A program made the position numbers and the translations under genes. From IMG/VR virus record IMGVR_UViG_3300005095_000128, positions 19,582-83,581 of that record: 64,000 nt of DNA, one strand, 5' to 3'. Each line of letters starts with the position of its first letter. Positions within the stretch are counted from its first letter, which is position 1. This stretch comes from a virus. The notes under the pieces are model-generated. The model searched no databases, was not told the DNA's origin, and worked only from the letters and a program-made list of their open reading frames with translations. This document shows, piece by piece, positions 11,291-44,200 of the stretch.

Positions 11291-11804
11291 TCCAGCACCC
11301 CCTCACCTCATCCGACGCATCGAACTTCTTGAAGAGGTGCATCGGATCGAGGTAGTTCCTCTTGATGAAGTCCCTGTCTACACCGGGCCAGTAATCGGGT
11401 GGCAGATCGGCAAGCCGCACCTCGAAGTGCAAGTGCGCCACGAACGGACGCATCGGATCGCCGCGGCCAATGGAGCCGATGTCCTCGCCCTCGCAAACGC
11501 GCATCCCCTCCTCGACGCTCATGTGCCGAAGGTGCGCGTATTGCGTCCACACGTTGAGCCCGGGATGCCAGATGACCACGATGTTGCCCCATACGCGGTG
11601 GCGCCCAGCGTGCGTGACAACGCCGCGATAGATAGCCCGGACCGGATAGCCGTCATCCCAGTTGCCTGGCGCACCCACGTTGATGTCGATACCCGGGTGC
11701 TCAGCGGCGGGAAGCCCGGCACGCACGCGCCAGTTGCGATACTCTGGGTCGAGGAAACCGGCGCTAACGCGGGCCCTGCTCCACGGCTTTACCGGATACA
11801 CCAT
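11271..11804 (-). CDS. M23 family peptidase (endolysin)
   Basis: HPGIDIN, GNIVVIWH, YAHL and HLHFEVR zinc-peptidase motifs. Confidence 0.92.
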   Translation of the reverse strand: MVYPVKPWSRARVSAGFLDPEYRNWRVRAGLPAAEHPGIDINVGAPGNWDDGYPVRAIYRGVVTHAGRHRVWGNIVVIWHPGLNVWTQYAHLRHMSVEEGMRVCEGEDIGSIGRGDPMRPFVAHLHFEVRLADLPPDYWPGVDRDFIKRNYLDPMHLFKKFDASDEVRGCWNGRSVQ

Positions 11805-13098
11805 CTTGGTCCTCCACCGGCTCAGGGGGCAACCCGTGCTTCTCGCGTAGGCGCTTCATGAGGTCGGGGTCGGCGCCGAAGATGTCGAGAAGCATCTTGT
11901 CAGCCTCGATATCGGTGCGGCGCGCCCTAGCATTGGACTCGGTGAACGGCGATTGCGGCTCCTTAAACTCGATCTCGACCGTCGCTGCAATGCCCTGCAG
12001 GCGAAGGTGAAGATTCAAGCCAAACTCGAGCTGCCGCTTGACCACCGCCTGGATATTCTTTGCCTCGGCAAGGATGATCGGGAAGGCAACCTTCGCCCAG
12101 GTCTCCGAGAGGCTCTCGGAGCGGCCGCGCATGAACGGCAGGGTGCGCACACCCGACCAGATCCGGTGCTCGTTGTCCTGCCACGCCGGAAACGCGCCGG
12201 AGATGTCACGCGCCGGCGAAGTCACCTTCATCTCGGTTCCGGCCGGTGTGACAAACACCCCCTGCCGCTCTCCTTCAGTGAGTAGATCGGCGACCTTCCT
12301 GAGCTTACGGGTCACCATGTCGATGTAGGCCGGATCTAGCTCGGACTCAAACCCAGCCTCTTGCGGCGGAGGAATCTGCACGGAGACGTGTACGATGCCG
12401 GCGATACCGAGAATCTCGATCAGGCGGTCGATGTTCTCGATCATCCGCCCCTTGCGCTGCAATGCCGAGAGGGCGGCGATGATGAGCGGGATACCATATG
12501 GCGAATCGCCGACGGTTTGAAGTGGCGCGTACAGGAATGTCGCCGGGTTGAGGCGCACTTCCTGGCCAGCGACCTCTTGCCAGAACTCGAGCGTTCCGTC
12601 GCGCCGGCGAACCAGCTTTATCGTTTCCGCCGGAACCGGATACGCCTGTTTGATAGCGGTTCTTCCACGGTTTGGGACCCATTCGACAGCCGACGCGCCA
12701 GCAACGACCACCTCGACGATTTGATTGTTGACAAACGCATGAAGCGAGCCGGTCTCAAAAAGCGAATCAATACTGGCCAGGGCTTCTCTGGCACGCTTTT
12801 CGTGCCTCCCACCTTTCGCCTTGATATTGAACTCGAAACCCGGGTTCGCGAGCACCACGAGATCGCGAACCGCGCCGTAAACGTCCTCGTCGGCAAGCGC
12901 AAGGTAGCGCAAATACCGGATGATGCTCGGGGTAATCTGCACCCCGTCGGCCACCACACGGTCGAGCTCACCGACCTCGTATCCCGACCGGCGGTTGTAC
13001 CCACCGATCACCACCATATCGGGCGTAATCGTGCGGCTACCTTGCGGCTGGGGCCCAGTGCGACGAAAGCGCGATGCCAGCCAGTCTAAAAGCCCCAT
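11764..13098 (-). CDS. Portal protein
   Basis: 444 aa directly after terminase, with SPYGIPLI motif. Confidence 0.85.
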   Translation of the reverse strand: MGLLDWLASRFRRTGPQPQGSRTITPDMVVIGGYNRRSGYEVGELDRVVADGVQITPSIIRYLRYLALADEDVYGAVRDLVVLANPGFEFNIKAKGGRHEKRAREALASIDSLFETGSLHAFVNNQIVEVVVAGASAVEWVPNRGRTAIKQAYPVPAETIKLVRRRDGTLEFWQEVAGQEVRLNPATFLYAPLQTVGDSPYGIPLIIAALSALQRKGRMIENIDRLIEILGIAGIVHVSVQIPPPQEAGFESELDPAYIDMVTRKLRKVADLLTEGERQGVFVTPAGTEMKVTSPARDISGAFPAWQDNEHRIWSGVRTLPFMRGRSESLSETWAKVAFPIILAEAKNIQAVVKRQLEFGLNLHLRLQGIAATVEIEFKEPQSPFTESNARARRTDIEADKMLLDIFGADPDLMKRLREKHGLPPEPVEDQDGVSGKAVEQGPR

Positions 13099-13109
13099 CT
13101 GCCACCTCC

Positions 13110-14711
13110 CTAGTCATTCGGTCTATAAATGCGCCCAATCATCGCTAGCAATGCGTCAAGGCCGGGCGCCCACCCATCGCTTCCGGTTTCACCCTGAAAG
13201 ACCGCGAGCACGAAAGCGTCAGCCCGGTCAGGGCTACGCCCGAGCCGGCGCTTGATCGCCTCCTTGCTCTCGATCTGGATCCGCCCCGTGTTATCGATGC
13301 GGTAGCGATGCTCGAGGAGCTCGCGGTCCAACCGATCGTCCCGCGGCACACCCACGTCCTTGAGCGCGTCGCGGAGGTAGTAGTACATCTCGGCCCGCTT
13401 GTTGGCGTAGCGCACCCCGTTGGAAGGCGCACCGCCAAACTGAATCGGCACGAGCTCGAACCATGGCGCGTTTTCTTTGCGCAAGATCACGTCGCGAATC
13501 TGGTCGACGACGCCACCGCCAACGCCACCCTCGTCGATGAGCAGACGCACGCGGGCGTTTTTGACACCGCGCTGACGCGCCTTTGTGCGTGCGGCAGTAG
13601 CGATTTTCCAGATACGGTTCGCCGTCTCAACGGTCGACGCCTCGCCCCACACATGGGCCGGCATGACCATCCCGCCCCAGTTCTCGTAAACCACGTTTTC
13701 GTCGGCACCAAAACGAGCGATGTCAGCGCCAAGTTGGATGGTGAAGGTGTCCTTGTTCGGCAGGCGAACGTCGTCGCTCCACCGACGGTGGGCGGCCTCG
13801 AGAAGATCGAGGCTGATGATCTGGTCCTCGGCCTGGGGCGGCGGAAGGCCGAGGATCTTGCTCATGGCGATCGCGCTCGCCCGCCAGAACTTACCATCCC
13901 ACCAGAAGTAGCCCTTTTCGGCTAGCGCAAGCTGCTCGCGCTCGTCCTCCGGCGGGACGACTTCCTCGCACCACTCGCGCACGTGCTCGTCGACCCAATC
14001 CCAGGTCACCGCACCGGGGATGACGGTCTTACGCTGCACGACGTTTGGGTGCTCAAGCGAGCTAATGCGCATGGCATAGGCGCCGCGCTTCGTCTTGAGC
14101 ATCTCGTGCGGGTCGTTCGGCGAGATCGGGTTGCCAAGCGATAGCACCTTGTTGTTCTCGCCGACGCGGATACCCTCGATGGCGGCGAAAATCTTCGGAT
14201 CAACGCCAGGGCCCTCGTCGATCACCACCAGGATGTTCGGCGAGTGGTGCCCCTGGAAGCGCGTCTCATCGTCGGTGGACAAGCCGATGGCAAACCGGTC
14301 GTCGCTAATGACGATCTCGGTTTGTTTGATGCGCCCGGGCAATCCCTTCCCGCGGCGCATGGTGCGGATCTCCTTCCAAAGGAGCGTGCGCACCTGGTTC
14401 CACGTGGGCGCCGTGGTGAGCACGAGCGCCGGATCGTGAACGTCGAGAAACCAGTTGACGATGGCGGCAGCGCCAGAGGTCTTACCGACGCCGTGACCGG
14501 CGTTTACCCGCACGACCTTGTGCGTGGCCACGGCGCGGGCCATCTCCTCCTGCTTGGCCCAGAAGTTGAACTTGAGAATCTCGCGAGCGTACCCGACCGG
14601 ATCATCCTTGTACGCGAACAAATCGAGGTACTTGCCGGCCTGGTTGGTATCAGGCTCTACCTTGCGAAGCACCTCACGCAAAATGTCTTCCGGTCGGAAC
14701 CTCGGCATCAT
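13110..14711 (-). CDS. terL: Terminase large subunit
   Basis: Walker A AGHGVGKT, APTWNQV, Walker B VVIDEG, LGNP, and RNase H-like GADIARFGAD...SPDRADA. Confidence 0.96.
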   Translation of the reverse strand: MMPRFRPEDILREVLRKVEPDTNQAGKYLDLFAYKDDPVGYAREILKFNFWAKQEEMARAVATHKVVRVNAGHGVGKTSGAAAIVNWFLDVHDPALVLTTAPTWNQVRTLLWKEIRTMRRGKGLPGRIKQTEIVISDDRFAIGLSTDDETRFQGHHSPNILVVIDEGPGVDPKIFAAIEGIRVGENNKVLSLGNPISPNDPHEMLKTKRGAYAMRISSLEHPNVVQRKTVIPGAVTWDWVDEHVREWCEEVVPPEDEREQLALAEKGYFWWDGKFWRASAIAMSKILGLPPPQAEDQIISLDLLEAAHRRWSDDVRLPNKDTFTIQLGADIARFGADENVVYENWGGMVMPAHVWGEASTVETANRIWKIATAARTKARQRGVKNARVRLLIDEGGVGGGVVDQIRDVILRKENAPWFELVPIQFGGAPSNGVRYANKRAEMYYYLRDALKDVGVPRDDRLDRELLEHRYRIDNTGRIQIESKEAIKRRLGRSPDRADAFVLAVFQGETGSDGWAPGLDALLAMIGRIYRPND

Positions 14712-28964: not shown

Positions 28965-30467
28965 ATGCAGGTTAACCGTGTAAAGGGTATGTATAATAGT
29001 GCTCGTTCAAAGCTTCCTGGCCGCGAACATGAGATGACCTATAACGACGCCGGTGGCGCCGTCTTCATCGACGATGCGAAGCGACTCGAGCGGTTCATCA
29101 TTCTCGGCATCGACGAGGGGACGATCTACGCTACGCCGGAAGAAATCCATGAGCGTACCATCGAGCTTATTCGCGAGCTTCCCTATGAGACCTTCAAGCG
29201 CGTCATGATCGAGGCGGCACCGAAAGCGTGGCGCAAGCGGAACCCGATTGCGGCCATTGCGATCCGCGCCGCCCTTACCGACGATCGCGCTCTCATTTTC
29301 AACGATTTGCTACCGAACCTTCCTGGCTTGTTCAAGACGCCCTCCGACCTGCTTTACTTCGCCTCCATGTACCGTGGCGCGTTCAGGAAGCCGTTTAGCC
29401 GCTCGGTGCGCCGGTTCGTCCAGCGCAAGCTCCACGACTTCGACGACTACCAGCTTGCCAAGTACCGCAAGCGCTATGGCATTTCCACGAGCGATCTCCT
29501 AAAGCTCGCGCACCCGCACCCTGGCGATCGCAACGCTGTCTTCCACTACCTCCTGGATGGTGAATACACCGACGAACTTGCCGGCACCATCTTCGAGGGC
29601 CTCAAGCTGGCCAACATCGCCGGTACGGTCGACGAGGTGCTCAAGGTCGCCGAGCGCTTCAACCTCTCGTGGGAGATGCTCCCCTCGTGGGCGCTCAAGG
29701 ATGCGGACACCTGGGTTGGCCTCTACCGCATGGGCAAGATTCCGGCAATGGCGCTCCTGCGCAACGCATGGCGCTTTGACCGGGATGGCGTACCAGGCGA
29801 TGTTTTCGATAGCGTTGTGGAAGATCTCTCCAAGATCCACCGCCGTGGCGTGCACCCCGGGTACATCCTGACGGCCGCCATCGAGTTAAAGCGCCGCAAC
29901 GCAAGCTACGATTTGGTCGATGCGCTCTTCAAGGCGTTCGACGCCGCATCGAGTAGCAACGCTGCGCACGACATGCGCATCGGGCTTGCCATCGACAATA
30001 GCGGCTCCATGTGGTGGGGCATGATCGGTGGGATGTTGCGCCTCGAGGCCGCACTCGCGCTTGGTAGCGTGATCGACTCTGCCTTCCGGCGCGTATCGGT
30101 GACCTACTTTAGCAATAGAGCGTACAACCTCAACATCCGCCCGCGTTCCGCGCTCGATAGCTTCGAGGATACGTTGCGCGAGTATAGCGGAGGCACTAGC
30201 GTGGCTAGCGCTCTAAGCCACCTTGCCGATCGCCGTGGCGACGGATACGACGCGACCGTAGTGATCACCGACGAGCAGAACTGGGCTGGCGAGAGCGTGC
30301 AGATGACCTACCAGCGGCACAAGAAGACGCTTGGCAAGCTCATCATCGTGACCGTTGACGCTAGCGCGAAGGGCTCGCTCACCGACCCCAAGGATCCTGA
30401 CCAGGTGACGGTCGTCGGCTTGGTGCCCGAGATCGACAAGGTGATCGCTGAGTTCGTGCGCGGGTAA
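28965..30467 (+). CDS. rsr: Ro60/Rsr-like TROVE + vWA RNA-binding protein
   Basis: NDAGGAVF, RLERFIILG..GTIY, YQLAKYR, DLLKLAHP, MALLRN; vWA MIDAS DNSGSM, GGT, ITDEQ. Own promoter TTGATT-17-TAAGCT. Confidence 0.92.
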   Translation: MQVNRVKGMYNSARSKLPGREHEMTYNDAGGAVFIDDAKRLERFIILGIDEGTIYATPEEIHERTIELIRELPYETFKRVMIEAAPKAWRKRNPIAAIAIRAALTDDRALIFNDLLPNLPGLFKTPSDLLYFASMYRGAFRKPFSRSVRRFVQRKLHDFDDYQLAKYRKRYGISTSDLLKLAHPHPGDRNAVFHYLLDGEYTDELAGTIFEGLKLANIAGTVDEVLKVAERFNLSWEMLPSWALKDADTWVGLYRMGKIPAMALLRNAWRFDRDGVPGDVFDSVVEDLSKIHRRGVHPGYILTAAIELKRRNASYDLVDALFKAFDAASSSNAAHDMRIGLAIDNSGSMWWGMIGGMLRLEAALALGSVIDSAFRRVSVTYFSNRAYNLNIRPRSALDSFEDTLREYSGGTSVASALSHLADRRGDGYDATVVITDEQNWAGESVQMTYQRHKKTLGKLIIVTVDASAKGSLTDPKDPDQVTVVGLVPEIDKVIAEFVRG

Positions 30468-35922: not shown

Positions 35923-36290
35923 CAGAACTGCACCTCCTCGTATAGGTCGACCATCGAGTAGCACAATTCCACTATGGCAATGCCCCCGTTCTGCTCACCG
36001 TATGGCGCATAGGAGCATTTGTGCGTGACGTTGATGATGTACAACGTACTACCTGATTGGTAATGCCACTCTTTTGTCTTTATGTCCTGATACCATCCAA
36101 ACTCCTCGAGTACGGCTCCAATATGATGGAGTACGCGTGATAGGACATCTAGCTCTACGCCTAGCACAACGCTAATCCTGCACCCCACATCAAGCGAGTC
36201 ATCACGTATCTTGCGCACTCCATCTAACTGGAGCGCATTGGCGGCGGCGAGGTCGAATACGGCCGCGGGTGATTCACACTTCGTATCCAT
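35922..36290 (-). CDS. Hypothetical protein
   Basis: ATG 9 nt after TACAAT of a TTGCAT-17-TACAAT promoter. Confidence 0.6.
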   Translation of the reverse strand: MDTKCESPAAVFDLAAANALQLDGVRKIRDDSLDVGCRISVVLGVELDVLSRVLHHIGAVLEEFGWYQDIKTKEWHYQSGSTLYIINVTHKCSYAPYGEQNGGIAIVELCYSMVDLYEEVQF

Positions 36291-36527
36291 AGCAACCCCA
36301 TTGTACCCGGGTGGTGCAATATATGCAACCCCGCCTATATAGGCTCCATGCCGCGCACAAAAATCGCACTACCCCTCCCATCGGAAAATGGTGGGGGTGC
36401 GGTTAGGGTTGACACCATCGATACCGTGGGCTAGACTGATAGTGCCAGCTACGAGAACCCTTGTGGGAGTTGGGCCGGGCTCCGGGAAACCGGAGCCCGG
36501 AAGCTTTTTGTGTGTTATAGTGTGGGC

Positions 36528-36929
36528 ATGGCTGGCTATGTTGAAGCAGCGCAAACGAAGCTAGCACACCTCAACCACGCACATAAAGATAGTCTATCTC
36601 ATGAAGTTTACGTTGAAGGCAAGTTAGTAGCGCTTATCCGGTCACATGGACCATCGCGCACCGTATTTATCGAAGCTTTCAAGGATGGTGAACAATGCCT
36701 TCACGTAAGCGTGCAACTCAGCAATGAGGGGGATATATACGACATCAAGGTGTACAAGCTTGGCGGCGGGTTGCAGTTGGTTGGGAACGAAATAACTATC
36801 CTTGATAGTTGTAGCGTTGAGTATATACGCATCGTTAGTGGTGGCCCGCCACCGGTGATGACGGTCAACATCAGGAAGGTTGCGCGACAGCAAGAAGTTG
36901 CCTCTGTGCTCATCTCCTACCTAAGCTAG
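36528..36929 (+). CDS. Hypothetical beta-rich protein
   Basis: ATG shortly after extended -10 TGTTATAGT. Confidence 0.55.
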   Translation: MAGYVEAAQTKLAHLNHAHKDSLSHEVYVEGKLVALIRSHGPSRTVFIEAFKDGEQCLHVSVQLSNEGDIYDIKVYKLGGGLQLVGNEITILDSCSVEYIRIVSGGPPPVMTVNIRKVARQQEVASVLISYLS

Positions 36930-36944
36930 TGGTGGTGATGTGCA

Positions 36945-37691
36945 ATGTGCCAGCTACAAGGTTTTAGACTCCTCCATAGCCAGGACGGCGGAGTTGTTCG
37001 CCTCAGCGCCCATATGGGCCAGGACGGCGTACTATTCCGCGAGGAGGGCCCTAATGGCGAGCTCGACATCACTATCGATGGCAAGCTCATCCTCATCCAG
37101 GAACACGGTGAGGGCGAATACGCAAGCATAGACATCAATGATGACGGAAGCGTCGATGTCGTTGACCAAAGCAACAACGTAATCGCTCGAGCCAATGGCG
37201 CTATCGTCATCAACGGCACAACGACATACGTTCTCGTCGTGCGCCCATCCGGTCACACTATCACCGTGGATCGCGACGGCATCTACCGGGTGTCGGCAAG
37301 CTTCGGCGACGGTAGCCCGGTAAGCACGAAAGCTATCTACGGCGACGACTCCATCTTCATGTCACGTGACAAGGTGGCTTACACGTTGGATCGTGAGCAC
37401 CTCTTCGTATCGGTTCGCCTATGCGACCAGAGCGGGATAGCGCTTATCACGTTGCAAAGCACTCTTACCGGCGAAGATGCGACCCTACTAGCTACCCAAA
37501 ATGGTGGGTTCATTCCAGCCGATGGCTCGGCTCAAATCGAGCTTGGCTTGGGCGACGTGAATGTGTACGTCAACGGTAGCAGGTTAACGGTGAGTAGGTC
37601 TAGCGCTAGCAGCGGCTCGTGTGGCGACATTAACATGCGATACGATGGGGAGTCGCTCCTGCATGTTATCCTCGACGAGCAACAACCCTAA
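36945..37691 (+). CDS. Hypothetical beta-hairpin-repeat protein
   Basis: 248 aa of short strand-DG/NG-turn units. Confidence 0.65.
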   Translation: MCQLQGFRLLHSQDGGVVRLSAHMGQDGVLFREEGPNGELDITIDGKLILIQEHGEGEYASIDINDDGSVDVVDQSNNVIARANGAIVINGTTTYVLVVRPSGHTITVDRDGIYRVSASFGDGSPVSTKAIYGDDSIFMSRDKVAYTLDREHLFVSVRLCDQSGIALITLQSTLTGEDATLLATQNGGFIPADGSAQIELGLGDVNVYVNGSRLTVSRSSASSGSCGDINMRYDGESLLHVILDEQQP

Positions 37692-37697
37692 CCCGAC

Positions 37698-37727
37698 CTG
37701 TCGAAGGGCGTTAGCCCTTCGCAGCGG
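37698..37727. repeat. 30-bp palindromic element, exact inverted copy at 43051-43080, related copy at 41188-41212
   Basis: CTGTCGAAGGGCGTTAGCCCTTCGCAGCGG is the reverse complement of CCGCTGCGAAGGGCTAACGCCCTTCGACAG. Confidence 0.9.
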
Positions 37728-38253
37728 CAACGTGCGCACCATGCTCACCAATAGCAAAGACAAGGCAAAGATCACCGTAGCTGACCACGAGCTCACCATC
37801 TATGCGATCGTTGGTAAACGCACCAACGGAAAAAGCGCCCTACTTATTGTCATAGGCGATGATAATGAACAAGACCAGCAGCTAGGTATACGCTTGGATT
37901 TTTGACGCTCGACAGTTGTCTGTTGGTTGGTTTGTCTTGGGGTTTTGTCGGCGCTTGTGTGGCTAGCAGAGGGGTGGCCTAGCCTTCGTTTGCTTTTGGG
38001 GTTGTGAGTTTTGGCTTTTTGCGCTTGGTGCTTGGCTGGGTATCGGGGTGCTTTATTGGGGGATTCTACGCTCGAGAAAAAAGAGAGTACCCCCTCCCTC
38101 TTCAGTTGCTTCCTCGATGGAAAGTGTTCTCTCCCTCACAATCCATAATCATTCTAACAACACTTCCCACATTCCTTGAGTCCCTCACGCTCAGGCTTGC
38201 TGAGCTTGGCCGCCCATAGGGTATAAACTTTGACTGAGTTCAAAAACGCTAGA

Positions 38254-38348
38254 AAATGCGATAAGCATGGGCTTTATGCGCTACGCAGCATAAATGCGAT
38301 AAGCATGCATACTTTACATATGCATAGCGGAAAAATGCGATAAGCATG
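38254..38348. repeat. Three direct repeats AAATGCGATAAGCATG (iteron-like)
   Basis: Copies at 38254, 38292 and 38333 in AT-richer non-coding DNA. Confidence 0.85.
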
Positions 38349-38566
38349 GGTTTTATGCAAGCCGTCTGAGCTTGCCTACAGCATACCCCCCTGGGGGCGC
38401 TGAGGGGGATAGGCTTAGGGTGGGCTTGCGATAGATACGCAAAGCTTTACTTTTGTATAGCGTCTTGGAGGGATTCTAGGAAATGCGCATAGAAAGTGCG
38501 TAGATATGCGTGATATGAGGGATAGAATGCATAAGTTGGAATGTGTGTTCTGGTGCACATATGGGC

Positions 38567-38598
38567 TTGACACTAGGGTAGCATATATGCTACCCTAG
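38567..38598 (+). promoter_or_regulatory. Early promoter overlapped by a perfect 26-bp palindrome
   Basis: TTGACA followed by CTAGGGTAGCATATATGCTACCCTAG, which contains TGnTACCCT. Confidence 0.75.
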
Positions 38599-38615
38599 GG
38601 GCGTAGGGGGATGTT

Positions 38616-38804
38616 ATGAGCAAGCGCTACCGGCAAATCTACCTTGAGCAAGCCCAGGCGTATGTTGTTACGGCCTGGAAAGATGGCAAGCGGGCCGAGC
38701 GTCATGTGTTTACCCGCTACACTGATGCATCCGCATGCGCCGATGAACTGCTAAAACGATATGACGACGTACGCATGGTGTGCCCTGGTACTCCTGAGCC
38801 ATAA
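38616..38804 (+). CDS. Small early hypothetical protein
   Basis: SD AGGGGG, first ORF after the promoter. Confidence 0.6.
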   Translation: MSKRYRQIYLEQAQAYVVTAWKDGKRAERHVFTRYTDASACADELLKRYDDVRMVCPGTPEP

Positions 38805-38848
38805 GCGGGATAGGGGCCTTTGGCCCCTATCCTACCCCCCCTATCCTA

Positions 38849-38915
38849 CCCCCTCATGGCCGGCCGCCTTGACGCGGCGAGGGGGCTCCCCCGAGAGGGG
38901 GTCTAAGTGCCGGCC
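38849..38915 (+). ncRNA. HDV-like ribozyme candidate 1 (non-canonical)
   Basis: P1 CCCCCTC/GAGGGGG; P2 GGCCGGC/GCCGGCC; P3 GCC/GGC; L3 TTGACGC; P4 CCCCC-GAGA-GGGGG; J4/2 CTAAG with putative catalytic C at 38903. Confidence 0.75.
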
Positions 38916-39045
38916 GGGGACCTTGAAAGCCTAGCCCATGCGCCGCCCCGCCCATGCGCGTATGCCCCCGCGTATGGGCATAGGGGTAGGCTAGGGGCGC
39001 GTTAGGCCCATACGCGCGTAAGCGCGTATGGGCTAGGGGGTAAAA

Positions 39046-39477
39046 ATGACCTGGAGCGAATACTCACGCGAATACGAAAAACTAACTAAGGCTATCCAGG
39101 ACGCACTTGCGGCGCACCTTGGCAAGGGCGCCGCCAAGCGCTTGGTGTCCGCCGGCGAATCGGCGGCGCTGAACACCCTAAAGGCCTTAGACCCGGCCAA
39201 GGGCCGGGAACTGGCCAAGGCGCTTGACGCCTTGGCCGCCCAAGCGCGTAACGTGGCCTTAGATACGGCCACGGAATACGCAAGGCAAGCGCTTCAGGCG
39301 CGTGAGCGATACGAAAAAACGCTCAGCAAGCTCAACGCGCGTTTTTCGAGCAAAGGCGATAAGGTAAGTATTGCCCTAATGGGTAATACTTACACTTTTG
39401 TAATCAAGGCCGGGGGGCGCTTGGAGCTCATCCCCAAGACCCCACGGGGGGCCAAGGGCCCCCGCCGGCGCAAGTAA
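39046..39477 (+). CDS. Ala/Lys-rich basic hypothetical protein between the two ribozyme folds
   Basis: 143 aa, SD AGGGGGT, helical, with basic tail KTPRGAKGPRRRK. Confidence 0.75.
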   Translation: MTWSEYSREYEKLTKAIQDALAAHLGKGAAKRLVSAGESAALNTLKALDPAKGRELAKALDALAAQARNVALDTATEYARQALQARERYEKTLSKLNARFSSKGDKVSIALMGNTYTFVIKAGGRLELIPKTPRGAKGPRRRK

Positions 39478-39479
39478 GG

Positions 39480-40136
39480 CATAGGCGCATGGGCTAGGCT
39501 CAGGGGGCGGATTATCCCGCCCCCTAAAATAAACCCGGCAAGCCATAATCATCATAAACATTTTTCCAGGCTTGCCGGGCGGCGCGAAGGCCGGAGTGAG
39601 TCCAAGCTCCGGCCGGGGCCGCGGTTGCGCTTGCATCCCGGCCCTAAATACGCGGCCTAGTATTCGGCCGCGTATCGCGCCGGAATTTTTGAACAAATAA
39701 AGCGGGACTCCCTACGCGCTTGCCGCCGGCGCGTAGGGGTTTAGCGAAACGGCGGTGTGCCCCGGTAGGGGGTGCAAAAGTAGGCCACGGGCTTAGGGTC
39801 CTTGCGCTAGCCCGGGCATATGCGTGTACATGCTGCCATACGTTTAGTATCACGCCGCGCAACATATGCTTACGCAAGCTCGCCCGGCTACCTGGCTCCG
39901 GGTAGCCGTAGCCCGTGCTAGCGCGTAGAGAGGACGTGGCAACCCCGCCTATGGGCGGGCGGGGTTATGGCCGTGGCCGGGGCGCGTAGCGATATGCGCT
40001 AACGCAAGGCATTGCGCCGGAAAAGACTTCGTGCGCCCTAGGTGGACCACTGCACCACCCGATTGGTATTTGAACCGGCTAGCGGGTGGTGTGCAAGTGG
40101 TCTACCGACTCGGGTGGTGAATGCAGCCCGAGGTAT
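39480..40136 (+). ncRNA. ~650 nt densely structured non-coding segment
   Basis: Near-continuous hairpins and multiway junctions, with no credible ORF. Confidence 0.55.
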
Positions 40137-40205
40137 CCCCCGCGAATCCGCCCCGCCTTGACGTGGCGCGGGGGCTCGGCGCGTAGGCGCCGCGAAGAGG
40201 GCGGA
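40137..40205 (+). ncRNA. HDV-like ribozyme candidate 2 (non-canonical)
   Basis: P1 CCCCCGC/GCGGGGG; P2 TCCGCCC/GGGCGGA; P3 GCC/GGC; L3 TTGACGT; P4 CGGCGC-GTAG-GCGCCG; J4/2 CGAAG with putative catalytic C at 40193. Confidence 0.75.
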
Positions 40206-40254
40206 AGCCCGTAAGTCCTGACCCGCATGGGCAGGCTGGGCAAGGGGGTATACA

Positions 40255-40698
40255 ATGCTCAAGGGCATGCAAGTGCAGCGCAAGGCGGAAGTGCGTGGGA
40301 ACAACGTCAAGCTTCGTTATATCATCGAAAAAGATGGTGCATCGCATGGGATCTTCAACCAGGGCGGAACAAACAACGGCAAAACTGGCGTACTAAACCA
40401 CCTTTTGGCATACGAGCTCGCAAAAGATGTGTTTCCAAGCCTAACCGAGAGGGAAGTGGTCGAAGCGTTTGGCGAGTTCTACTTCCCAGATGGAACTTGG
40501 CTCGATTCTGGCGGCTACTACTATTCTATTGTGGCCACATACAAGGACAAAAACGTGATCACACAGGTGCACCGTGCAATCTTTGATTGGCTCCGTCGCG
40601 GCATAGAAGCAGCCGCGGCGCTTGAAGAGCGCCGCGGGCTCGAGCGGTGGCTCTGGGAAGAAGCCACCTTTAGCTTGGATGGACGGAGGGTTGGCTAA
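40255..40698 (+). CDS. Early hypothetical protein
   Basis: SD AAGGGGGT, 50 nt downstream of ribozyme 2. Confidence 0.7.
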   Translation: MLKGMQVQRKAEVRGNNVKLRYIIEKDGASHGIFNQGGTNNGKTGVLNHLLAYELAKDVFPSLTEREVVEAFGEFYFPDGTWLDSGGYYYSIVATYKDKNVITQVHRAIFDWLRRGIEAAAALEERRGLERWLWEEATFSLDGRRVG

Positions 40699-41030
40699 TG
40701 CGATACAGAATCGTTTACCGCGCCCCGGGGGTTCTTCCCCGGGGTACCAGGCGGGAGGAGTATTCCTCCCGCGACAAGGCAATGGCCCGTGCGGTGGAGC
40801 TAAGCCGCGCGGGGTACATGGTCGAGGTCTACCCCGTTTACCCGCGTCCAAACGGGCGCGAGTGGCGGGGTACGCCCCTACGCCTGGAGCCTAGGCCGGC
40901 GTAGGGGTGATAGGGCATGGCCAAGGTACGCCGCTACCCCGCCCCGCCCAGCAAGGGGCGGGGCTACTATCCCACATGGCTCGAGCGAGACGCCGGGCCA
41001 CTGGGCAAGTTTTCGTGGCGGAGGAAGTAA
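40698..41030 (+). CDS. Two small basic ORFs (40698-40904; 40917-41030, MAKVRRYPAPP..., 37 aa)
   Basis: SDs GGAGGG and AGGGGTGA, followed by a terminator. Confidence 0.55.
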
Positions 41031-41057
41031 AGTACCCTCCGCCACGCAAGTAAGCTC

Positions 41058-41108
41058 GAGCCCTGGGACTTTGGCCCCAGGGCTTTTATTTTTTTGTTTT
41101 TATTTTTG
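41058..41108 (+). terminator. Strong intrinsic terminator
   Basis: AGCCCTGGG...CCCAGGGCT followed by a long T tract. Confidence 0.9.
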
Positions 41109-41225
41109 AGCACACAAACCTAGTTTCCCGGTCTATATTTCCGCGCGGTGTAGGCCGGGGTTTTGCAGTTTACGCGCGGGCATGTGACTGCGAAGGGCAA
41201 AGCCCTTCGCAGAAAGGAGGATGAA

Positions 41226-44200
41226 ATGCCAAAGTATATGGTCACCTACAACCAGCCCGGCTACCTCCCCGAGTCGGAACCCATCTACGCCGACTCGGTG
41301 GAGGAAGCCATCGAGGCATATCGGCATGTAGTTGAAGACATCCTCGAGGCTGGCCCACTCGACACGGCCGGCCTCAAGGAAACCATCCTTCGCTTTGGCG
41401 GGGTGGCTGGCACATTCGCCACCCCCGAAGGTATCTGGTACGCGGTCGACATTGACCTTGTACCGGAAGGCAACGGAGGGGGTGAGATTTAGGTAAAAAT
41501 CTTAGTCGGCTCGGGGTGTTGCCTGCACCCCACTAGGCGGAGCCCTGGGGTTTGGGTCATATTTGGGAATCATTTTAGCGCCAACCCTAGGGCTCAGGAG
41601 CTTTTTGTGCCTTGCTTATCGCATTTGAACTCGGTACAAAAATCCATTTTTACCAAAGAATCGCTCCAAATAACTCATTCGCACGCGATTTTCCGCGTGC
41701 GCATCGGCATTCCCGCGCTCCGGTCGGGCGCGGATACGAGCTCGTGAAACACTGGAAACTTTTTAGGGCTTGTATCCGCCCTAGGAGCGATTGGCATTTT
41801 TCGCGATAGGCAAGGCAAGTGAAGAAAGAGCACAAGCGTGAAACATATGGGGGTTCGAGATGCAGGCTAAGGTAGTCGTCAAGCGGCTTGAGGACCAAGA
41901 GGTCCTAGAGGTACAGCACGCGCCGAGCGTGCGCACGCTCCTGCACTACGCCCTCGCGCGGGGCGTGGATGTGGGGTTCCCCGTCGCATCCGGCGGGGAA
42001 TACACGTTCGAGCTCCTAGGCGATCGCCTTGCGCATGTGGTGCAGGGCGATGCTGAGTTCATGCGGCAGCTTGCGGACCTGACTGCCTTGCTGGTTTTCC
42101 GGCTTGAGGACTGCATGCCCGAGTCGGTACGCAAGCGGGCACGAAAAGCGTTCGCTACTGAAGACGTCGCTCAAGCGGTCTGGAACGCCTTCCGGGCGCT
42201 GCTGGACGCGGGGTTCCATGCCCGCAAGTGGTGCCCGGAGAAGGTCGTGGAAATCCTGAAGGAGGGATAGCGTGCGGGTGAATGTTCATGTACATGACAT
42301 GCCCGAATACGGGCTAATCTCGGTGGATTGGAAAGACGCAAAGATGGAAAACAACATGCGGCAGTTGCGTCTCAAAAGACGGCGGATTTGGTTCGTCCCA
42401 AGCAAGCGCACCACCGAACGTCTCCTCGACGCCATCCGCCAGCTCCTCGACGCTGACCCCGAAGTAGACCAAGCCGCCAAAAACGCCGTCCTGGACGCAA
42501 TCAAATCGGCAAAGGGCTGGTGGCTCGACCTGGACAACAACACCATTGAGCTTGAAGTGAGTGGGAGGTGATTTTTGCGATGCCCAAGGCAAATCTCGAA
42601 GTCAAGGAAGCCTTGCGGTTGATCCGCAAGCTCGAGCGTAGGGTCAAGAAATCCCTTGCCCATCGGGATTCTGCCCTCGCCGAGCTCGCCGAGGCTCGGC
42701 GGGCGATCCAAGAAGGCCGATGGGAATGGGCAGAATTGTTCATCCGCGATGTGAAGGAGGCGCTCCAATGGGCCAACCGATAGCTAATCTGGCACGAAAC
42801 ACAAAGGTCAACCGAAGGGGTAGCATATATGTTGCCGTGGCAAAAGCCCCAGGCTACCCCGCGTTGGGTTATCCCAAATGGTGGGATGACCAAGATGTAA
42901 TACGCGCTTACATTGTTGACTTGGTGCAAATAGGTTTGGTGCATCTAGTGAAGGGGGGTGAAAGTGGTGAAGCGTTATATCTAGGTGGGGAGTAGTGGTG
43001 ATTAGTGGTAGTAGGTCTAAAGGCGTTTTGGGGTGTGGTGAAGTCCCGTTCCGCTGCGAAGGGCTAACGCCCTTCGACAGCAATAGCTAGTGGGAGGTGA
43101 GAAAATGACGAAAGATCTGGTGCTCGTGAATTTGTACGACCGCGGCCTTCGGCAGTTCGACAACTTCCTCTTCGCTATCTTCAAGCGCGAGGAGCTAATC
43201 AAGACGGCTAAATGGCTTCTGCAGGCGCACAAGCGCTTGCAGGGCGTTGACGAAGTGGACCCGCTCACCGGCGTGATCTTACGTACAGAGAATCCGCTCG
43301 TCATGTTCGAGTACGCGCCGGCGTTGAGTGAGGTAGTTCCCGCTCCCGAGAAACTTCGCGAAAGCATGATCGGCGTCTCAGAAGAGACTAAGAACCGCAT
43401 CCTCGAGCTCGTGGAGCAGCACAGGCTTGCGTTGCCTGTCGCGCTAACGCATATGACGTACTATCCAGAGTTCAGCACGAATGGCATCATCGGCATTGAG
43501 GCAGAAAGTGAGTACAACAACCTTGCAACGATCTACGTTGACAAGGACTACTTCATGCGGTGGATTGGGGGTGATGCGAATGAAAATCAATAGGTACGAT
43601 AACGGCGAACTCGTTGTGGAGATCGAATCACCACAACTACTACGAATCTCGTCTGAGACAGCGGACGAGGTTCTTCCGGTTCTGGTCGTCGATAGCAACA
43701 CCATCGCGATCGATCGCATGAAAGTCACTTTGCGCGACGGCGACGCGCGGTCGATTGCGATGGAAATCAAACGCGCCGACGAAGCCGCATACCGCGACCT
43801 TGCCGTTCAAGCGCGTATGCCACTCATCGCCTACGTGGCGTATTGGTGGAGGCCGCAAACTACCGAATACGAAATCATCGAGCGCTTTCGCCATTTTTGG
43901 CCAAACCTCCCCGACGAATACACTCTTGCATTTTTCGATTTTGAGCCAAATGAAGACGGGTATGTGATCGCGTACCCGGATAAATACCGCATTGTCTTTG
44001 ACGAGGACCGCGATGCGTACATTGGTATCGAAGATGGCGGGGGCTACATCGCTTCGATCTGGCTCCCGCCGCGGTTAGTGAGCGCTTACGTGTTCGAGGG
44101 TTCACAGCTTCTACCGGCGGGCTTAGCTATTGGCATGCCAGAGGGTAAGAAAAACCGGCTTGGGCAAATCATCACTTAGGGGGGTGAATCCTATGGGCAA

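What the first reader, a model, noticed from the sequence alone, without database searches (positions are those of the whole stretch)
38849..40136. Ribozyme-bracketed ~1.29 kb unit: possible phage-made circular or precisely processed RNA encoding a basic protein
Seen: the two ribozyme folds are in tandem on the same strand. They enclose one ORF (39046-39477, Ala/Lys-rich, basic tail) plus about 650 nt of dense structure, and the segment is more GC-rich and palindrome-rich than its flanks. Known: HDV-type cleavage leaves a 5'-OH and a 2',3'-cyclic phosphate, which are RtcB ligase substrates, and tandem ribozymes release circularisable monomers in retrozymes and viroid-like RNAs. Inference: cleavage at both sites would release a 1288-nt RNA that could circularise or be stabilised, either as a long-lived early mRNA/RNP or as an embedded viroid-like passenger. 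The phage's Ro60, a family often linked with RtcB, may handle such ends. No RtcB is seen in this window.
Basis: inference. Interest (0 to 1): 0.85.

Follow-up and report, generated by a model that had tools for sequence, protein, structure and literature searches.

The report
Two HDV-like ribozymes punctuate phage operon
Two previously uncatalogued RNA folds of the hepatitis-delta self-cutting type sit 1.29 kb apart in the early genes of an uncultured phage, where they most likely chop a long transcript into separate, end-protected RNAs; nothing yet shows that the piece between them becomes a circle.

Summary
Positions 38849-38915 and 40137-40205 (+ strand) both fold as complete HDV-type nested double pseudoknots. 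They have a catalytic-position C in J4/2 and the U...G pair in L3. A third copy, in a diverged relative (metagenome contig L105), gives compensatory changes: 51 of 51 cells paired, 6 of 17 pairs changed on both sides. Rfam does not detect the window's copies. They start with C1-G instead of the canonical G1-U wobble, so activity is unproven.

Between them lie a real-looking gene for a basic 143-aa orphan protein and 659 nt of non-coding, + strand-specific RNA structure. The last ~160 nt of that structure are conserved in L105.

Similarity to relatives breaks at the ribozymes' outer edges, and a ribozyme-plus-leader module precedes different genes. This fits operon punctuation and cassette insulation, as proposed for clustered hammerheads in prophages (Perreault 2011).

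The circular-RNA idea has no support: no RNA data, the unit's ends do not pair, and the incomplete record encodes no ligase. It is not excluded.

Earlier notes of this scan report ribozyme-bracketed phage RNAs and a C-starting HDV-like subclass on other DNA.

Verdict: a new variant of a known kind, of moderate interest.

The parts
38808..38832 (+). 11-bp GC-rich hairpin just after the ORF62 stop codon (38802-38804), 16 nt before the Rz1 cleavage site. It would become the 3'-terminal hairpin of the upstream cleavage product.
   Evidence: Read from the sequence. No U-tract follows it, and the terminator scan did not list it.
38849..38915 (+). Rz1, an HDV-type double-pseudoknot fold. P1 38849-38854 with 38880-38885. 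P2 38858-38864 with 38909-38915. P3 38865-38868 with 38876-38879. L3 38869-38875. P4 38888-38892 with 38897-38901 (GAGA loop). Catalytic-position C at 38903. Predicted cut between A38848 and C38849.
   Evidence: Descriptor hits. Structural parse with all helices perfect. Covariation. Shuffle null. Not found by Rfam.
38916..39045 (+). Structured leader of ORF143. It holds repeated GCGYATGGGC-type motifs that form hairpins, including a 12-bp stem with a GTAA loop at about 39006-39033. A Shine-Dalgarno-like GGGGG lies 5 nt before the ATG.
   Evidence: Repeat families D12, I10, I18 and I19. Sequence. 300-nt window 38800-39099 has z = -6.2.
38928..38944 (+). 5' arm of a perfect 17-nt long-range inverted repeat that, with 39484-39500, encloses ORF143.
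   Evidence: I5 (100% complementary, 539 nt apart). The helix forms in both the MFE and the centroid fold of the whole unit.
39046..39477 (+). ORF143: a 143-aa orphan protein, Ala/Lys/Arg-rich, pI 10.25, with a basic C-terminal tail.
   Evidence: ORF list. Coding-like GC by codon position. Composition. No Pfam or PHROG family, no homologue other than itself in 5.8 billion proteins, no usable Atlas or PDB relative. In one relative's contig, 8 codons differ by 4 synonymous changes and 1 replaced codon (my reading of the loose end at 39341).
39484..39500 (+). 3' arm of the 17-nt inverted repeat, starting 7 nt after the ORF143 stop codon.
39478..40136 (+). 659-nt non-coding, densely folded RNA tail. 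Its 3' end would be set by Rz2 cleavage.
   Evidence: z = -10.4 on the + strand and -8.95 on the - strand. Flat codon-position GC and 6-12 stops in every frame. No Rfam family at E<=10. No tRNA or tmRNA. Single-base indels in relatives at 39851, 39876 and 40136.
39980..40136 (+). Conserved 3' domain of that RNA: a multibranch domain, a long hairpin (40041-40106) and a terminal hairpin (40109-40132), followed by GUAU and the cleavage site.
   Evidence: 75% identity to L105 over 231 columns including Rz2. Both sequences fold alike on their own. Of 45 shared pairs, 36 are the same, 6 changed on one side, 3 are compensatory and 0 are broken; 14 cells are G-U and 0 are A-C, so the structure belongs to the + strand RNA.
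40137..40205 (+). Rz2, an HDV-type double-pseudoknot fold. P1 40137-40142 with 40169-40174. P2 40147-40153 with 40199-40205. P3 40154-40157 with 40165-40168. L3 40158-40164. P4 40177-40182 with 40187-40192 (GUAG loop). Catalytic-position C at 40193. Predicted cut between U40136 and C40137.
   Evidence: Not found by Rfam.
40206..40698 (+). Leader (40206-40254) plus ORF147 (40255-40698). This cassette is absent from relatives. Its leader resembles the leader behind a different ribozyme (RzB) in L105.
   Evidence: In L105 the ribozyme is followed directly by the ORF68 homologue. Joints 40204->40752 and 40205->40728 appear in relatives' contigs. The Rz2 end plus leader against the RzB end plus leader shows 80% mean column identity. 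ORF147 has no Pfam or PHROG family.
40698..41095 (+). The rest of the transcription unit after Rz2: ORF68 (40698-40904), a conserved 37-aa basic ORF (40917-41030) and an intrinsic-terminator-like hairpin with a T-run (41058-41095).
   Evidence: ORF68 is 60% identical to its L105 homologue. The 37-aa ORF was translated and has a 42-aa counterpart in L105. Terminator scan.

Best explanation
Rz1 (38849-38915) and Rz2 (40137-40205) are paralogous members of a small, uncatalogued subtype of HDV-like self-cleaving ribozymes. They lie on the + strand in the rightward early-gene block of an uncultured tailed phage.

Most likely each cuts the nascent early transcript at its own 5' edge (A38848|C38849 and U40136|C40137). 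This turns a polycistronic RNA into separate linear RNAs.
- Every upstream product ends in a stable hairpin plus a 2',3'-cyclic phosphate.
- Every downstream product begins with a 5'-OH buried in the compact ribozyme fold.
- Both kinds of end should be poor substrates for 5'-monophosphate-dependent RNase E/J entry and for 3'-OH-dependent exonucleases and polyadenylation.

The middle product is a 1,288-nt linear RNA: ribozyme, structured leader, the gene for a basic 143-aa protein enclosed by a 17-bp long-range helix, and a 659-nt structured tail whose exact 3' end Rz2 makes.

The ribozymes behave as portable modules at cassette junctions. They travel with a downstream leader or an upstream structured RNA while neighbouring genes are swapped. 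So they probably also insulate each cassette's expression from whatever lies upstream.

Shown here: the folds, their covariation, the coding and non-coding assignments, conservation of the upstream RNA, and the junction pattern. Inferred: cleavage itself, the chemistry of the ends, and the effects on stability and insulation.
For: Fold:
- All four helices are perfect in Rz1, Rz2 and L105's RzA, although P2 and P4 differ in sequence.
- 51/51 cells pair and 6/17 pairs are compensatory, 5 of them in the pseudoknot helix P2. Only 1-2/500 shuffles reach this.
- Scores are 42.2 and 41.8, against <=36.0 in 24 shuffled strand-scans.

Catalytic features:
- C sits at the start of a C-N-A-A-G J4/2 in all copies. 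This is the position named as catalytic in passages of PMC10879173.
- L3 is 7 nt with U at position 1 and G at position 6. G25 pairs with U20, and G25A shows no observable cleavage after 60 s (passages of PMC13635239).
- The candidate P1.1 has one C-G pair plus U-U. An active Ackermannviridae ribozyme has U:A plus U:U.

Lineage: L105 has a second, canonical copy (RzB, with a G-U wobble). It is the top ribozyme hit of Rfam on that contig: RF00094 at 30.1 bits, E = 0.069, below the gathering score of 50.

Context:
- The early region lies between the accessory genes and the replication genes.
- A hairpin sits 4-16 nt before each cut site.
- Similarity to relatives breaks at 38845 and at 40204/40205.
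- ORF147 is absent behind the ribozyme in L105.
- The ribozyme-plus-leader module is shared at 80% identity in front of different ORFs.
- The upstream RNA domain is conserved with + strand-specific G-U pairs.

Precedent: multiple hammerheads flank genes in prophages, cleave in vitro and in E. coli, and were proposed to process long phage transcripts (passages of PMC3088659).
Against: - No Rfam HDV family matches Rz1 or Rz2, even at E<=10.
- The cleavage-site pair is C1-G. [quoted passage not shown]
- The -1 base of Rz1 is A, which is less favourable than U or C in HDV (same paper).
- P1.1 has at most one Watson-Crick pair.
- Only three sequences of this subtype exist, two of them from one genome, so the covariation rests on few independent events.
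- No RNA data exist for this phage. Transcription across both sites, cleavage and the ends are therefore unobserved.
- Promoters and terminators inside the unit cannot be excluded. There is a strong hairpin without a U-tract at 39503-39526, and a terminator-like hairpin inside ORF143 at 39364-39393 (where the total count equals the shuffle expectation).
- The generic descriptor's decoys hit 19 loci, so HDV-like shapes are easy to find in this GC-rich genome.
Confidence: 0.5

Rival explanations
1. Conserved but non-catalytic pseudoknots. The HDV-shaped folds are kept for their shape, for example as blocks to 5'-3' or endonucleolytic decay, as protein-binding sites, or as translation-modulating leader structures. 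They do not cut, because the C1-G pair and weak P1.1 have abolished catalysis.
For: C1-G replaces the required G1:U37 wobble. P1.1 has one Watson-Crick pair at most. There is no Rfam match. HDV-like ribozymes are known to have non-cleavage roles such as IRES-like function and protein binding in R2 elements (passages of PMC6765202).
Against: The residues needed only for chemistry are all kept in all three copies, while the helices drift: C at the start of J4/2, the C-N-A-A motif, and U1/G6 of L3. A weak P1.1 with U-U is compatible with fast cleavage. The sister copy RzB in the same lineage is canonical. An earlier, unchecked note of this scan reports a recurrent C-starting HDV-like subclass in another phage.
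Confidence: 0.2
2. Circular RNA. After both cuts, the 1,288-nt RNA is joined end to end by a host RtcB-type ligase, which accepts 5'-OH and 2',3'-cyclic phosphate ends. This gives a long-lived circular mRNA or RNP.
For: The chemistry of HDV-type cleavage gives exactly the ends that RtcB joins (established knowledge). Tandem ribozymes release circularisable monomers in retrozymes (passages of PMC7761336). The unit carries one ORF and much structure. An earlier, unchecked note of this scan reports one ribozyme-derived circle in a gut phage.
Against: The MFE and centroid folds of the unit do not juxtapose its ends. The two ribozymes are diverged paralogues, not repeat copies. No ligase family was found in the record, which is incomplete. 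A circle would contain an intact Rz1 able to re-cut the junction, and I found no sequence that would mask it (inference; repeats). For hammerhead-flanked prophage genes, circular or spliced products were sought and not detected (passages of PMC3088659). In L105 the homologous ribozyme is paired with a second one beyond a terminator and an AT-rich region.
Confidence: 0.08
3. Mobile or viroid-like passenger. The ribozyme-bounded unit is a selfish element that moves between phages (retrozyme- or delta-like), and ORF143 is its RNA-binding protein.
For: Similarity to relatives breaks at the unit's outer edges, 38845 and 40204/40205. The enclosed protein is basic and an orphan. The unit is richer in GC than its left flank.
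Against: No copy exists elsewhere: phage records, viral contigs and the protein collection. There is no reverse transcriptase or integrase next to it. No relative's contig shows a precise absence among the joints listed (10 further joints were not shown). The breakpoints are equally explained by swapping of the genes outside the unit: ORF62 replaced and ORF147 absent. ORF143 has no similarity to delta antigen or any Pfam family.
Confidence: 0.04
4. Chance or DNA-level feature. The GC-rich palindromes serve as DNA sites (operators, origin or recombination sites) and merely happen to fit an HDV descriptor.
For: Both strands of 39478-40136 fold far better than shuffles, z = -10.4 and -8.95. Decoy descriptors hit 19 loci. 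Repeated GCGYATGGGC motifs look like binding sites.
Against: 0 of 24 shuffled strand-scans reach the observed scores. The compensatory changes include a pseudoknot helix. There are 14 G-U cells against 0 A-C cells in the conserved upstream domain, which only makes sense for + strand RNA. The sister element RzB has an Rfam HDV hit.
Confidence: 0.03

Closest known systems
HDV-like (delta-like) self-cleaving ribozymes, including the Ackermannviridae phage ribozyme (PMC13635239) and Rfam RF00094 / RF02682
   Same: The nested double pseudoknot P1-P2-P3-P4 is present, with 7-bp P2, 3-4-bp P3 and 7-nt L3. C sits at the head of J4/2 followed by N-A-A. U and G occupy L3 positions 1 and 6. Size is 67-69 nt and cleavage is predicted at the 5' edge. 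The weak P1.1 with a U-U pair matches the active Ackermannviridae example.
   Different: The cleavage-site pair is C1-G rather than the G1-U wobble. L3 reads UUGACGY. No Rfam model scores these sequences, even at E<=10. Only the sister copy RzB in L105 is canonical, and it is sub-threshold. Activity is untested.
Theta ribozymes: minimal HDV-like ribozymes of gut phages (Kienbeck et al. 2024, PMC10879173)
   Same: These are HDV-type ribozymes in tailed-phage genomes whose cut defines the 3' end of an upstream structured RNA. Non-tRNA examples in non-coding regions are reported with unknown function (passages).
   Different: Theta ribozymes lack P4, start with G1 and mostly abut tRNA 3' ends. 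Here P4 is full (5-7 bp). No tRNA lies within 36000-43500. The upstream RNA is a 659-nt structured tail of an mRNA.
Clustered hammerhead ribozymes flanking genes in prophages (Perreault et al. 2011, PMC3088659)
   Same: Several self-cleaving ribozymes on one strand bracket single genes or short gene blocks of variable identity in phage DNA. They were proposed to process long phage transcripts into gene-length mRNAs. One archaeal-virus example maps to the 5' end of an early transcript (passages).
   Different: The ribozyme class differs (hammerhead against HDV-type). HDV-type ribozymes stay entirely on the downstream product. Here the bracketed unit also holds a large conserved structured RNA.
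HDV-like ribozymes at the 5' end of R2 and L1Tc retrotransposon RNAs (reviewed in PMC6765202)
   Same: A ribozyme at the 5' edge of a unit frees it from an upstream co-transcript. Comparisons show conserved sequence on one side of the ribozyme and varying sequence on the other (passages; compare).
   Different: There is no reverse transcriptase or endonuclease here, and the setting is bacterial-virus DNA. At Rz2 the conserved side is upstream (the structured RNA) as well as the downstream leader.
Retrozymes, viroid-like and delta-like circular RNAs (PMC7761336)
   Same: Two same-strand ribozymes bound a unit of about 1.3 kb. It is highly structured and, like HDV, encodes a small basic protein.
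   Different: There is no evidence of a circle. The ribozymes are not repeat copies. There is no rod-like fold or end pairing, no antigenomic ribozyme, and no copies elsewhere.
Synthetic ribozyme insulators such as RiboJ
   Same: A self-cleaving ribozyme is placed between the promoter or upstream context and a gene's leader, so that the mRNA 5' end is the same whatever lies upstream. This is the function I infer from the shared ribozyme-plus-leader module.
   Different: RiboJ is engineered and derived from a hammerhead-type satellite ribozyme. The natural role here is inferred, not shown.

Membership tests
HDV-like self-cleaving ribozymes | Nested double-pseudoknot secondary structure (P1, P2, P3, P4 in the canonical order, with P2 crossing P1) | tested here: met
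   All helices are perfect in Rz1, Rz2 and RzA. 51/51 cells pair and 6/17 pairs are compensatory, including 5 in P2. Scores lie beyond all 24 shuffled strand-scans.
HDV-like self-cleaving ribozymes | Catalytic cytosine at the start of J4/2 (C75 equivalent) | tested here: met
   C38903 and C40193 head a C-N-A-A-G joiner, as in L105's RzA and RzB. The role of this position comes from passages of PMC10879173 and PMC13635239.
HDV-like self-cleaving ribozymes | L3 with the U20...G25 pair next to the active site | tested here: met
   L3 is 7 nt with U at position 1 and G at position 6 in all four sequences. The importance of G25 comes from passages.
HDV-like self-cleaving ribozymes | Two-base-pair P1.1 between L3 and the joiner after P1 | tested here: inconclusive
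   The joiner CU can form C-G with L3 position 3 and U-U with position 2 (my reading). One Watson-Crick pair plus U:U is seen in an active phage ribozyme. These positions are invariant in the three C-type copies, so there is no covariation. RzB has the canonical GG:CC.
HDV-like self-cleaving ribozymes | G1-U37 wobble pair at the cleavage site (required in HDV proper) | tested here: not met
   Rz1, Rz2 and RzA have C1-G; only RzB has G-U. The requirement is stated in passages of PMC1874588. For this reason I call the window's copies a variant of the kind, not plain members.
HDV-like self-cleaving ribozymes | Match to a curated covariance model (RF00094, RF02682, RF01787, RF01788) | tested here: not met
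   There is no such match on the window at gathering scores or at E<=10 on 38400-40700. The sister element RzB in L105 scores 30.1 bits on RF00094 (gathering 50) and 20 bits on RF02682.
HDV-like self-cleaving ribozymes | Site-specific self-cleavage that gives 5'-OH and 2',3'-cyclic phosphate ends and is abolished by C-to-U at the catalytic position | not testable with these tools
   This needs a bench assay. No RNA run holds the stretch.
Theta ribozymes (minimal HDV-like) | P4 absent or minimal, and the cleavage site within a few nt of a tRNA 3' end | tested here: not met
   P4 is 5-7 bp. ARAGORN finds no tRNA in 36000-43500. The only tRNAs of the window are at 1951-2100.
Ribozyme-derived circular RNAs (retrozyme or viroid-like) | Covalently closed RNA, shown by junction reads or RNase R resistance | not testable with these tools
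   No RNA holder was listed. The contigs laid were DNA.
Ribozyme-derived circular RNAs (retrozyme or viroid-like) | Ends brought together by the RNA's own fold (rod-like or end-pairing), and ribozymes that are repeat copies | tested here: not met
   The ends are not paired in the MFE or centroid fold. P2 and P4 of the two ribozymes differ throughout.
Large catalogued phage-associated RNAs (GOLLD, ROOL, HEARO, OLE), considered for 39478-40136 | Match to the Rfam model | tested here: not met
   No such family appears among the 5 matches at E<=10.

The most novel reading that the evidence does not exclude
The 1,288-nt RNA released by the two HDV-type cuts is closed by a host RtcB-type ligase into a circular, translatable RNA that encodes a basic, possibly RNA-binding protein. 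That would be a DNA-templated, delta-like circular RNA made by a bacteriophage. Its 659-nt conserved structured tail, and perhaps the phage's own Ro60/Y-RNA system, would handle the ends or the folding.
Probability: 0.07. Interest if true: 0.9.

Novelty: new variant of a known kind. Interest (0 to 1): 0.55.

Why it matters
Functions of most genomic self-cleaving ribozymes, and of HDV-like ones in phages outside tRNA processing, are unknown (passages of PMC6765202 and PMC10879173).

This locus gives a compact, testable case. Two HDV-type ribozymes that the standard catalogue misses sit at the junctions of swappable early-gene cassettes. One of them sets the 3' end of a conserved large structured RNA.

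If they cleave, three things would follow:
- HDV-type catalysis tolerates a C-G pair at the cleavage site in nature, which would widen search descriptors.
- Phages use ribozymes as natural operon punctuation and context insulators.
- There would be a route to phage RNAs with 5'-OH and cyclic-phosphate ends, the substrates of RtcB-type repair, in a phage that also carries Ro60 and Y-like RNAs.

Tried and rejected
- My first rigid descriptor missed both sites, because it forced a 3-bp P3 flush against P2. I replaced it.
- MAFFT alignments A1, A5 and A6 misaligned the variable helices. P4 is still out of register in A7, so the tool-based pair count covers P1, P2 and P3 only. P4 pairing comes from my parse.
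- Relatives were sought and not found through: phage records by blastn; the exact core pattern in viral contigs; ORF147 and ORF143 in viral contigs; ORF143, ORF88 and ORF248 in the 5.8-billion protein collection, each finding only itself; and the A2 and A3 profiles in viral and genome contigs.
- The relaxed core patterns gave 45 viral and 109 metagenome stretches. My script examined 154 sites and only 1 (L105) has a full fold with C; 3 fit decoys.
- Conserved blocks of the upstream RNA gave 7 chance hits in unrelated coding sequence and 0 hits.
- The exhaustive profile search with A2 gave 4 proteins. One new small homologue (P0005) could not be placed on a contig. The other two are long proteins with weak partial matches, which I did not follow. 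The only locus returned (L164, a Schlesneria MAG, 34% identity) has no ribozyme-like fold and no similarity to the window.
- No RNA holder was listed for the stretch, so nothing can be said about expression. The three DNA runs come from one study and hold small shares. Parts without cover are not used as evidence.
- ORF143 has no Pfam or PHROG family, no usable Atlas hit and no meaningful PDB relative (best E = 0.0054 to an antifreeze repeat). I ran no further search on it.
- No RtcB, RNA_ligase or 2_5_RNA_ligase2 family is in the record. The record is 61% complete, so this is weak.
- Scan look-ups by sequence and by relatives returned only my own stretch or nothing.
- Supplementary files of papers were closed and were not opened. 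The supplementary lists of isolated theta and minimal ribozymes of PMC10879173 may contain C-starting or mRNA-linked examples that bear on novelty.
- I found no paper describing HDV-type ribozymes bracketing an mRNA in a phage. The searches were 'HDV-like ribozyme' + 'bacteriophage', 20 papers, listing read; 146 papers, 15 listed. This is no proof of absence.


Full report
WHAT THE WINDOW IS. The window is bases 19582-83581 of an 83,581-nt IMG/VR virus record estimated to be 61% complete. Structural genes lie on the - strand: major head protein 5552-6622, portal 11764-13098 and large terminase 13110-14711. A middle block holds a Ro60/TROVE-vWA gene at 28965-30467. From about 36.4 kb a long + strand block of small orphan genes leads into the replication genes: helicase 53145, primase 54742, Erf-like 58040, DnaB-like 59122, dCTP deaminase 61206 and a polymerase exonuclease 62314. 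The finding therefore sits near the start of what looks like the early region.

ARE THE TWO RIBOZYME FOLDS REAL? Rfam does not see them. At gathering scores the window gives only two tRNAs. At E<=10 on 38400-40700 there are five weak matches, none to a self-cleaving ribozyme family. I therefore tested the fold from first principles.
- A generic HDV descriptor with C at the catalytic position hits exactly two loci in the whole genome on both strands: 38849-38916 and 40137-40205.
- The same descriptor with A, G or U at that position (the decoy control of Kienbeck et al., passages) hits 19 loci. Shape alone proves nothing in this GC-rich DNA.
- A scored version separates the two sites clearly. 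They score 42.2 and 41.8. The best other C hit scores 29.6 and the best independent decoy 34.0.
- 0 of 24 strand-scans of 12 dinucleotide-preserving shuffles of the genome exceeded 36.0.

The two sites share P3, L3 (UUGACGY), the 3' strand of P1 and a CU joiner as a 25-nt direct repeat spaced 1,289 nt apart. P2 and P4 are entirely different sequences that still pair perfectly.

A THIRD COPY AND COVARIATION. Relaxed core patterns found 45 viral and 109 metagenome stretches. Of the 154 sites my script examined, only one has a complete fold with C. It lies on L105, a 1,998-nt metagenome contig. Three sites fit decoys. L105's copy (RzA) again has new, perfectly paired P2 and P4.

On the three-sequence alignment A7, all 51 cells of P1, P2 and P3 pair. 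Six of 17 pairs changed on both sides, five of them in the pseudoknot helix P2. Only 1-2 of 500 shuffles reach these values, and sliding the partners drops pairing to 48-57%. P4 could not be put in register by MAFFT, so it is supported only by my parse.

I regard the fold as established. The caveat is that it rests on three sequences, two of them from one genome.

COULD THEY CUT? In favour:
- C heads a C-N-A-A-G J4/2 in every copy.
- L3 keeps U at position 1 and G at position 6. G25 pairs with U20, and the G25A mutant shows no observable cleavage after 60 s (passages of PMC13635239). A roughly 3000-fold loss is quoted in PMC1874588.
- The putative P1.1 has one C-G pair plus U-U. This resembles the U:A plus U:U of an active Ackermannviridae ribozyme.

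Against:
- The cleavage-site pair is C1-G. HDV proper specifically requires the G1:U37 wobble.
- The -1 base of Rz1 is A, a less favourable choice in HDV.

The same lineage also has a canonical copy. RzB lies in L105, at reverse-complement positions 911-977. It has a G-U wobble, a GG:CC P1.1 and a GNRA-capped P4. It is the best ribozyme hit of Rfam on that contig: RF00094 at 30.1 bits, E = 0.069, below the gathering score of 50; and RF02682 at 20 bits. I put activity of Rz1 and Rz2 at roughly two in three.

WHAT LIES BETWEEN THEM.
ORF143 (39046-39477) looks like a real gene.
- It has a GGGGG Shine-Dalgarno-like element 5 nt before the ATG.
- Its GC by codon position is 0.60/0.49/0.69, like the confident genes.
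- Over 8 codons that one relative's contig reads on beyond 39341, there are 4 synonymous changes and one replaced codon (my reading).
- The protein is basic (pI 10.25), has 26 Ala, 15 Lys and 13 Arg, carries a K/R-rich tail and has no detectable relative.

A perfect 17-nt inverted repeat (38928-38944 and 39484-39500) encloses the ORF. It forms in the MFE and centroid folds of the whole unit. By analogy with rRNA and T7 early-RNA processing stems it could be an RNase III site or a stabilising clamp. That is inference only.

The 659 nt after the ORF are non-coding, with flat codon-position GC and 6-12 stops in each frame. They are extremely structured, with z = -10.4 on the + strand. They match no Rfam family and no tRNA.

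The last ~160 nt are conserved in L105 at 75% identity over 231 columns including Rz2, which is higher than the 64% of the adjacent protein-coding DNA. The two sequences fold alike on their own. Of 45 shared pairs, none is broken and 3 are compensatory. There are 14 G-U cells and no A-C cell, so this is + strand RNA and not a DNA palindrome.

In both phages a terminal hairpin ends 2-4 nt before the cleavage site. A hairpin also precedes Rz1 by 16 nt.

JUNCTION BEHAVIOUR. DNA contigs of three runs from one study contain relatives of this phage.
- Their similarity to the window stops and restarts at 38845, with about 233 different letters upstream.
- It also breaks at 40204/40205, resuming at 40728-40752.
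- A contig that follows the window to 40243 then runs into a different ribosome-binding site and ORF.

L105 explains the second break. There the ribozyme is followed after 13 nt by the homologue of ORF68 (60% identity), so ORF147 with its leader (40206-40697) is an insertion or deletion difference. That leader, together with the ribozyme's 3' end, is 80% identical to the sequence behind RzB in L105, where it precedes an unrelated small ORF.

So a ribozyme-plus-leader module sits in front of different genes, and ribozyme edges coincide with mosaic joints. After Rz2 the unit runs through ORF147, ORF68 and a conserved 37-aa basic ORF to a strong terminator at 41058-41095. L105 has the same order and then an AT-rich region before RzB.

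MOST LIKELY MECHANISM. The ribozymes cut the early transcript at their 5' edges and divide it into separate linear RNAs.
- Upstream pieces end in a hairpin plus a cyclic phosphate.
- Downstream pieces begin with a 5'-OH inside a compact fold.
- From what is established about bacterial RNA decay, such ends should slow degradation. This refers to 5'-monophosphate sensing by RNase E and RNase J, and the 3'-OH dependence of PNPase, RNase II/R and poly(A) polymerase.

The module structure suggests a second benefit: each cassette gets the same 5' end whatever lies upstream. This is what synthetic ribozyme insulators do (recalled). The arrangement mirrors what Perreault et al. described for hammerheads that flank genes in prophages. 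They proposed transcript processing, and they looked for circular or spliced products without finding them (passages). It also mirrors the 3'-end-making role of theta ribozymes behind phage tRNAs.

THE CIRCULAR-RNA IDEA. Nothing I could test supports it.
- There are no RNA data.
- No fold brings the ends together.
- The two ribozymes are not repeat copies.
- No ligase is found in the incomplete record.
- A circle would keep an intact Rz1 able to re-open it (inference).

Nothing excludes it either, because hosts commonly carry RtcB: the family rang in 10 of 14 control genomes. I give it 0.07-0.08.

The viroid-like passenger reading is weaker still. No copy exists elsewhere, and the breakpoints are explained by exchange of the outside genes.

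NOVELTY. HDV-like ribozymes in phages are known, and so is ribozyme bracketing of phage genes. What is new here:
- a subtype that the catalogue misses and that starts with C-G;
- its placement at cassette junctions of an early operon;
- its coupling to a conserved large structured RNA tail.

Earlier, unchecked notes of this scan report a C-starting HDV-like subclass and ribozyme-bracketed large RNAs in other phages. The theme therefore appears recurrent rather than unique. I rate it a new variant of a known kind, with interest 0.55.

Noticed in passing
window 37698-37727 and 43051-43080; also 41187-41211; L105 reverse-complement about 1470-1498: A perfect 30-nt inverted repeat lies 5.3 kb apart, and each arm is itself a hairpin (stem CGAAGGGC/GCCCTTCG). 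A third copy sits directly before the ribosome-binding site of ORF88 (41226). L105 has an equivalent hairpin, with a compensatory G-to-C/C-to-G change, before the homologous gene. It is probably a recurring 5'-UTR or boundary hairpin rather than transposon ends.
   Followed up: partly
window 38253-38358 and 41610-41626: Three tandem copies of a 27-nt repeat (core AAATGCGATAAGCATGG, spacing 38-41 nt) lie in the gene-poor stretch upstream of ORF62 and Rz1. An inverted copy sits 3.3 kb downstream. They look like operators, iterons or a promoter array that may drive or control the ribozyme-containing transcript.
   Followed up: no
window 38576-38594, 42818-42836, 36312-36330: A 19-nt palindrome (GGGTAGCATATATGCTACC), preceded by TTGACA at 38567, recurs three times in the early region. 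It is a candidate operator or phage-specific promoter.
   Followed up: no
window 37730-38615: About 0.9 kb has no convincing ORF, lower GC (0.48-0.53) and many short repeats. It lies between ORF248 and ORF62. In relatives part of it (38140-38519) is replaced by 332 other letters.
   Followed up: no
window 39364-39393: A perfect 13-bp AT-rich hairpin followed by ACTTTTGTAA lies inside the ORF143 coding sequence, and the terminator scan listed it. It could attenuate transcription within the unit. The scan's total count equals the shuffle expectation.
   Followed up: no
window 40917-41030: A conserved 37-aa very basic ORF (pI 11.0) lies between ORF68 and the terminator. L105 has a 42-aa counterpart.
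   Followed up: partly
L105 1022-1088 (- strand): A second, canonical HDV-like ribozyme (RzB) lies in the relative. It follows a terminator and an AT-rich region, so it may sit at the very 5' end of a primary transcript and remove the triphosphate leader. It is a sub-threshold Rfam RF00094 hit.
   Followed up: partly
L105 1541-1583 (- strand): There is a weak match to the Rfam COG2908 RNA motif (24.8 bits, E = 0.00081, gathering score 58.7). It spans the 3' end of the ORF68 homologue and the start of the next small ORF. It is probably chance.
   Followed up: no
window 38865, 39459, 42673 (contigs of run X3): The same roughly 25-letter loose end appears at three unrelated places in contigs of one run. 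It looks like a library or assembly artefact rather than biology (table 7).
   Followed up: no
window 40600-41800: 300-nt windows keep z-scores of -5.4 to -6.4 beyond the ribozyme-bounded unit, across ORF68, the small ORF, the terminator and ORF88. Heavy RNA structure is therefore a property of this whole early segment.
   Followed up: no
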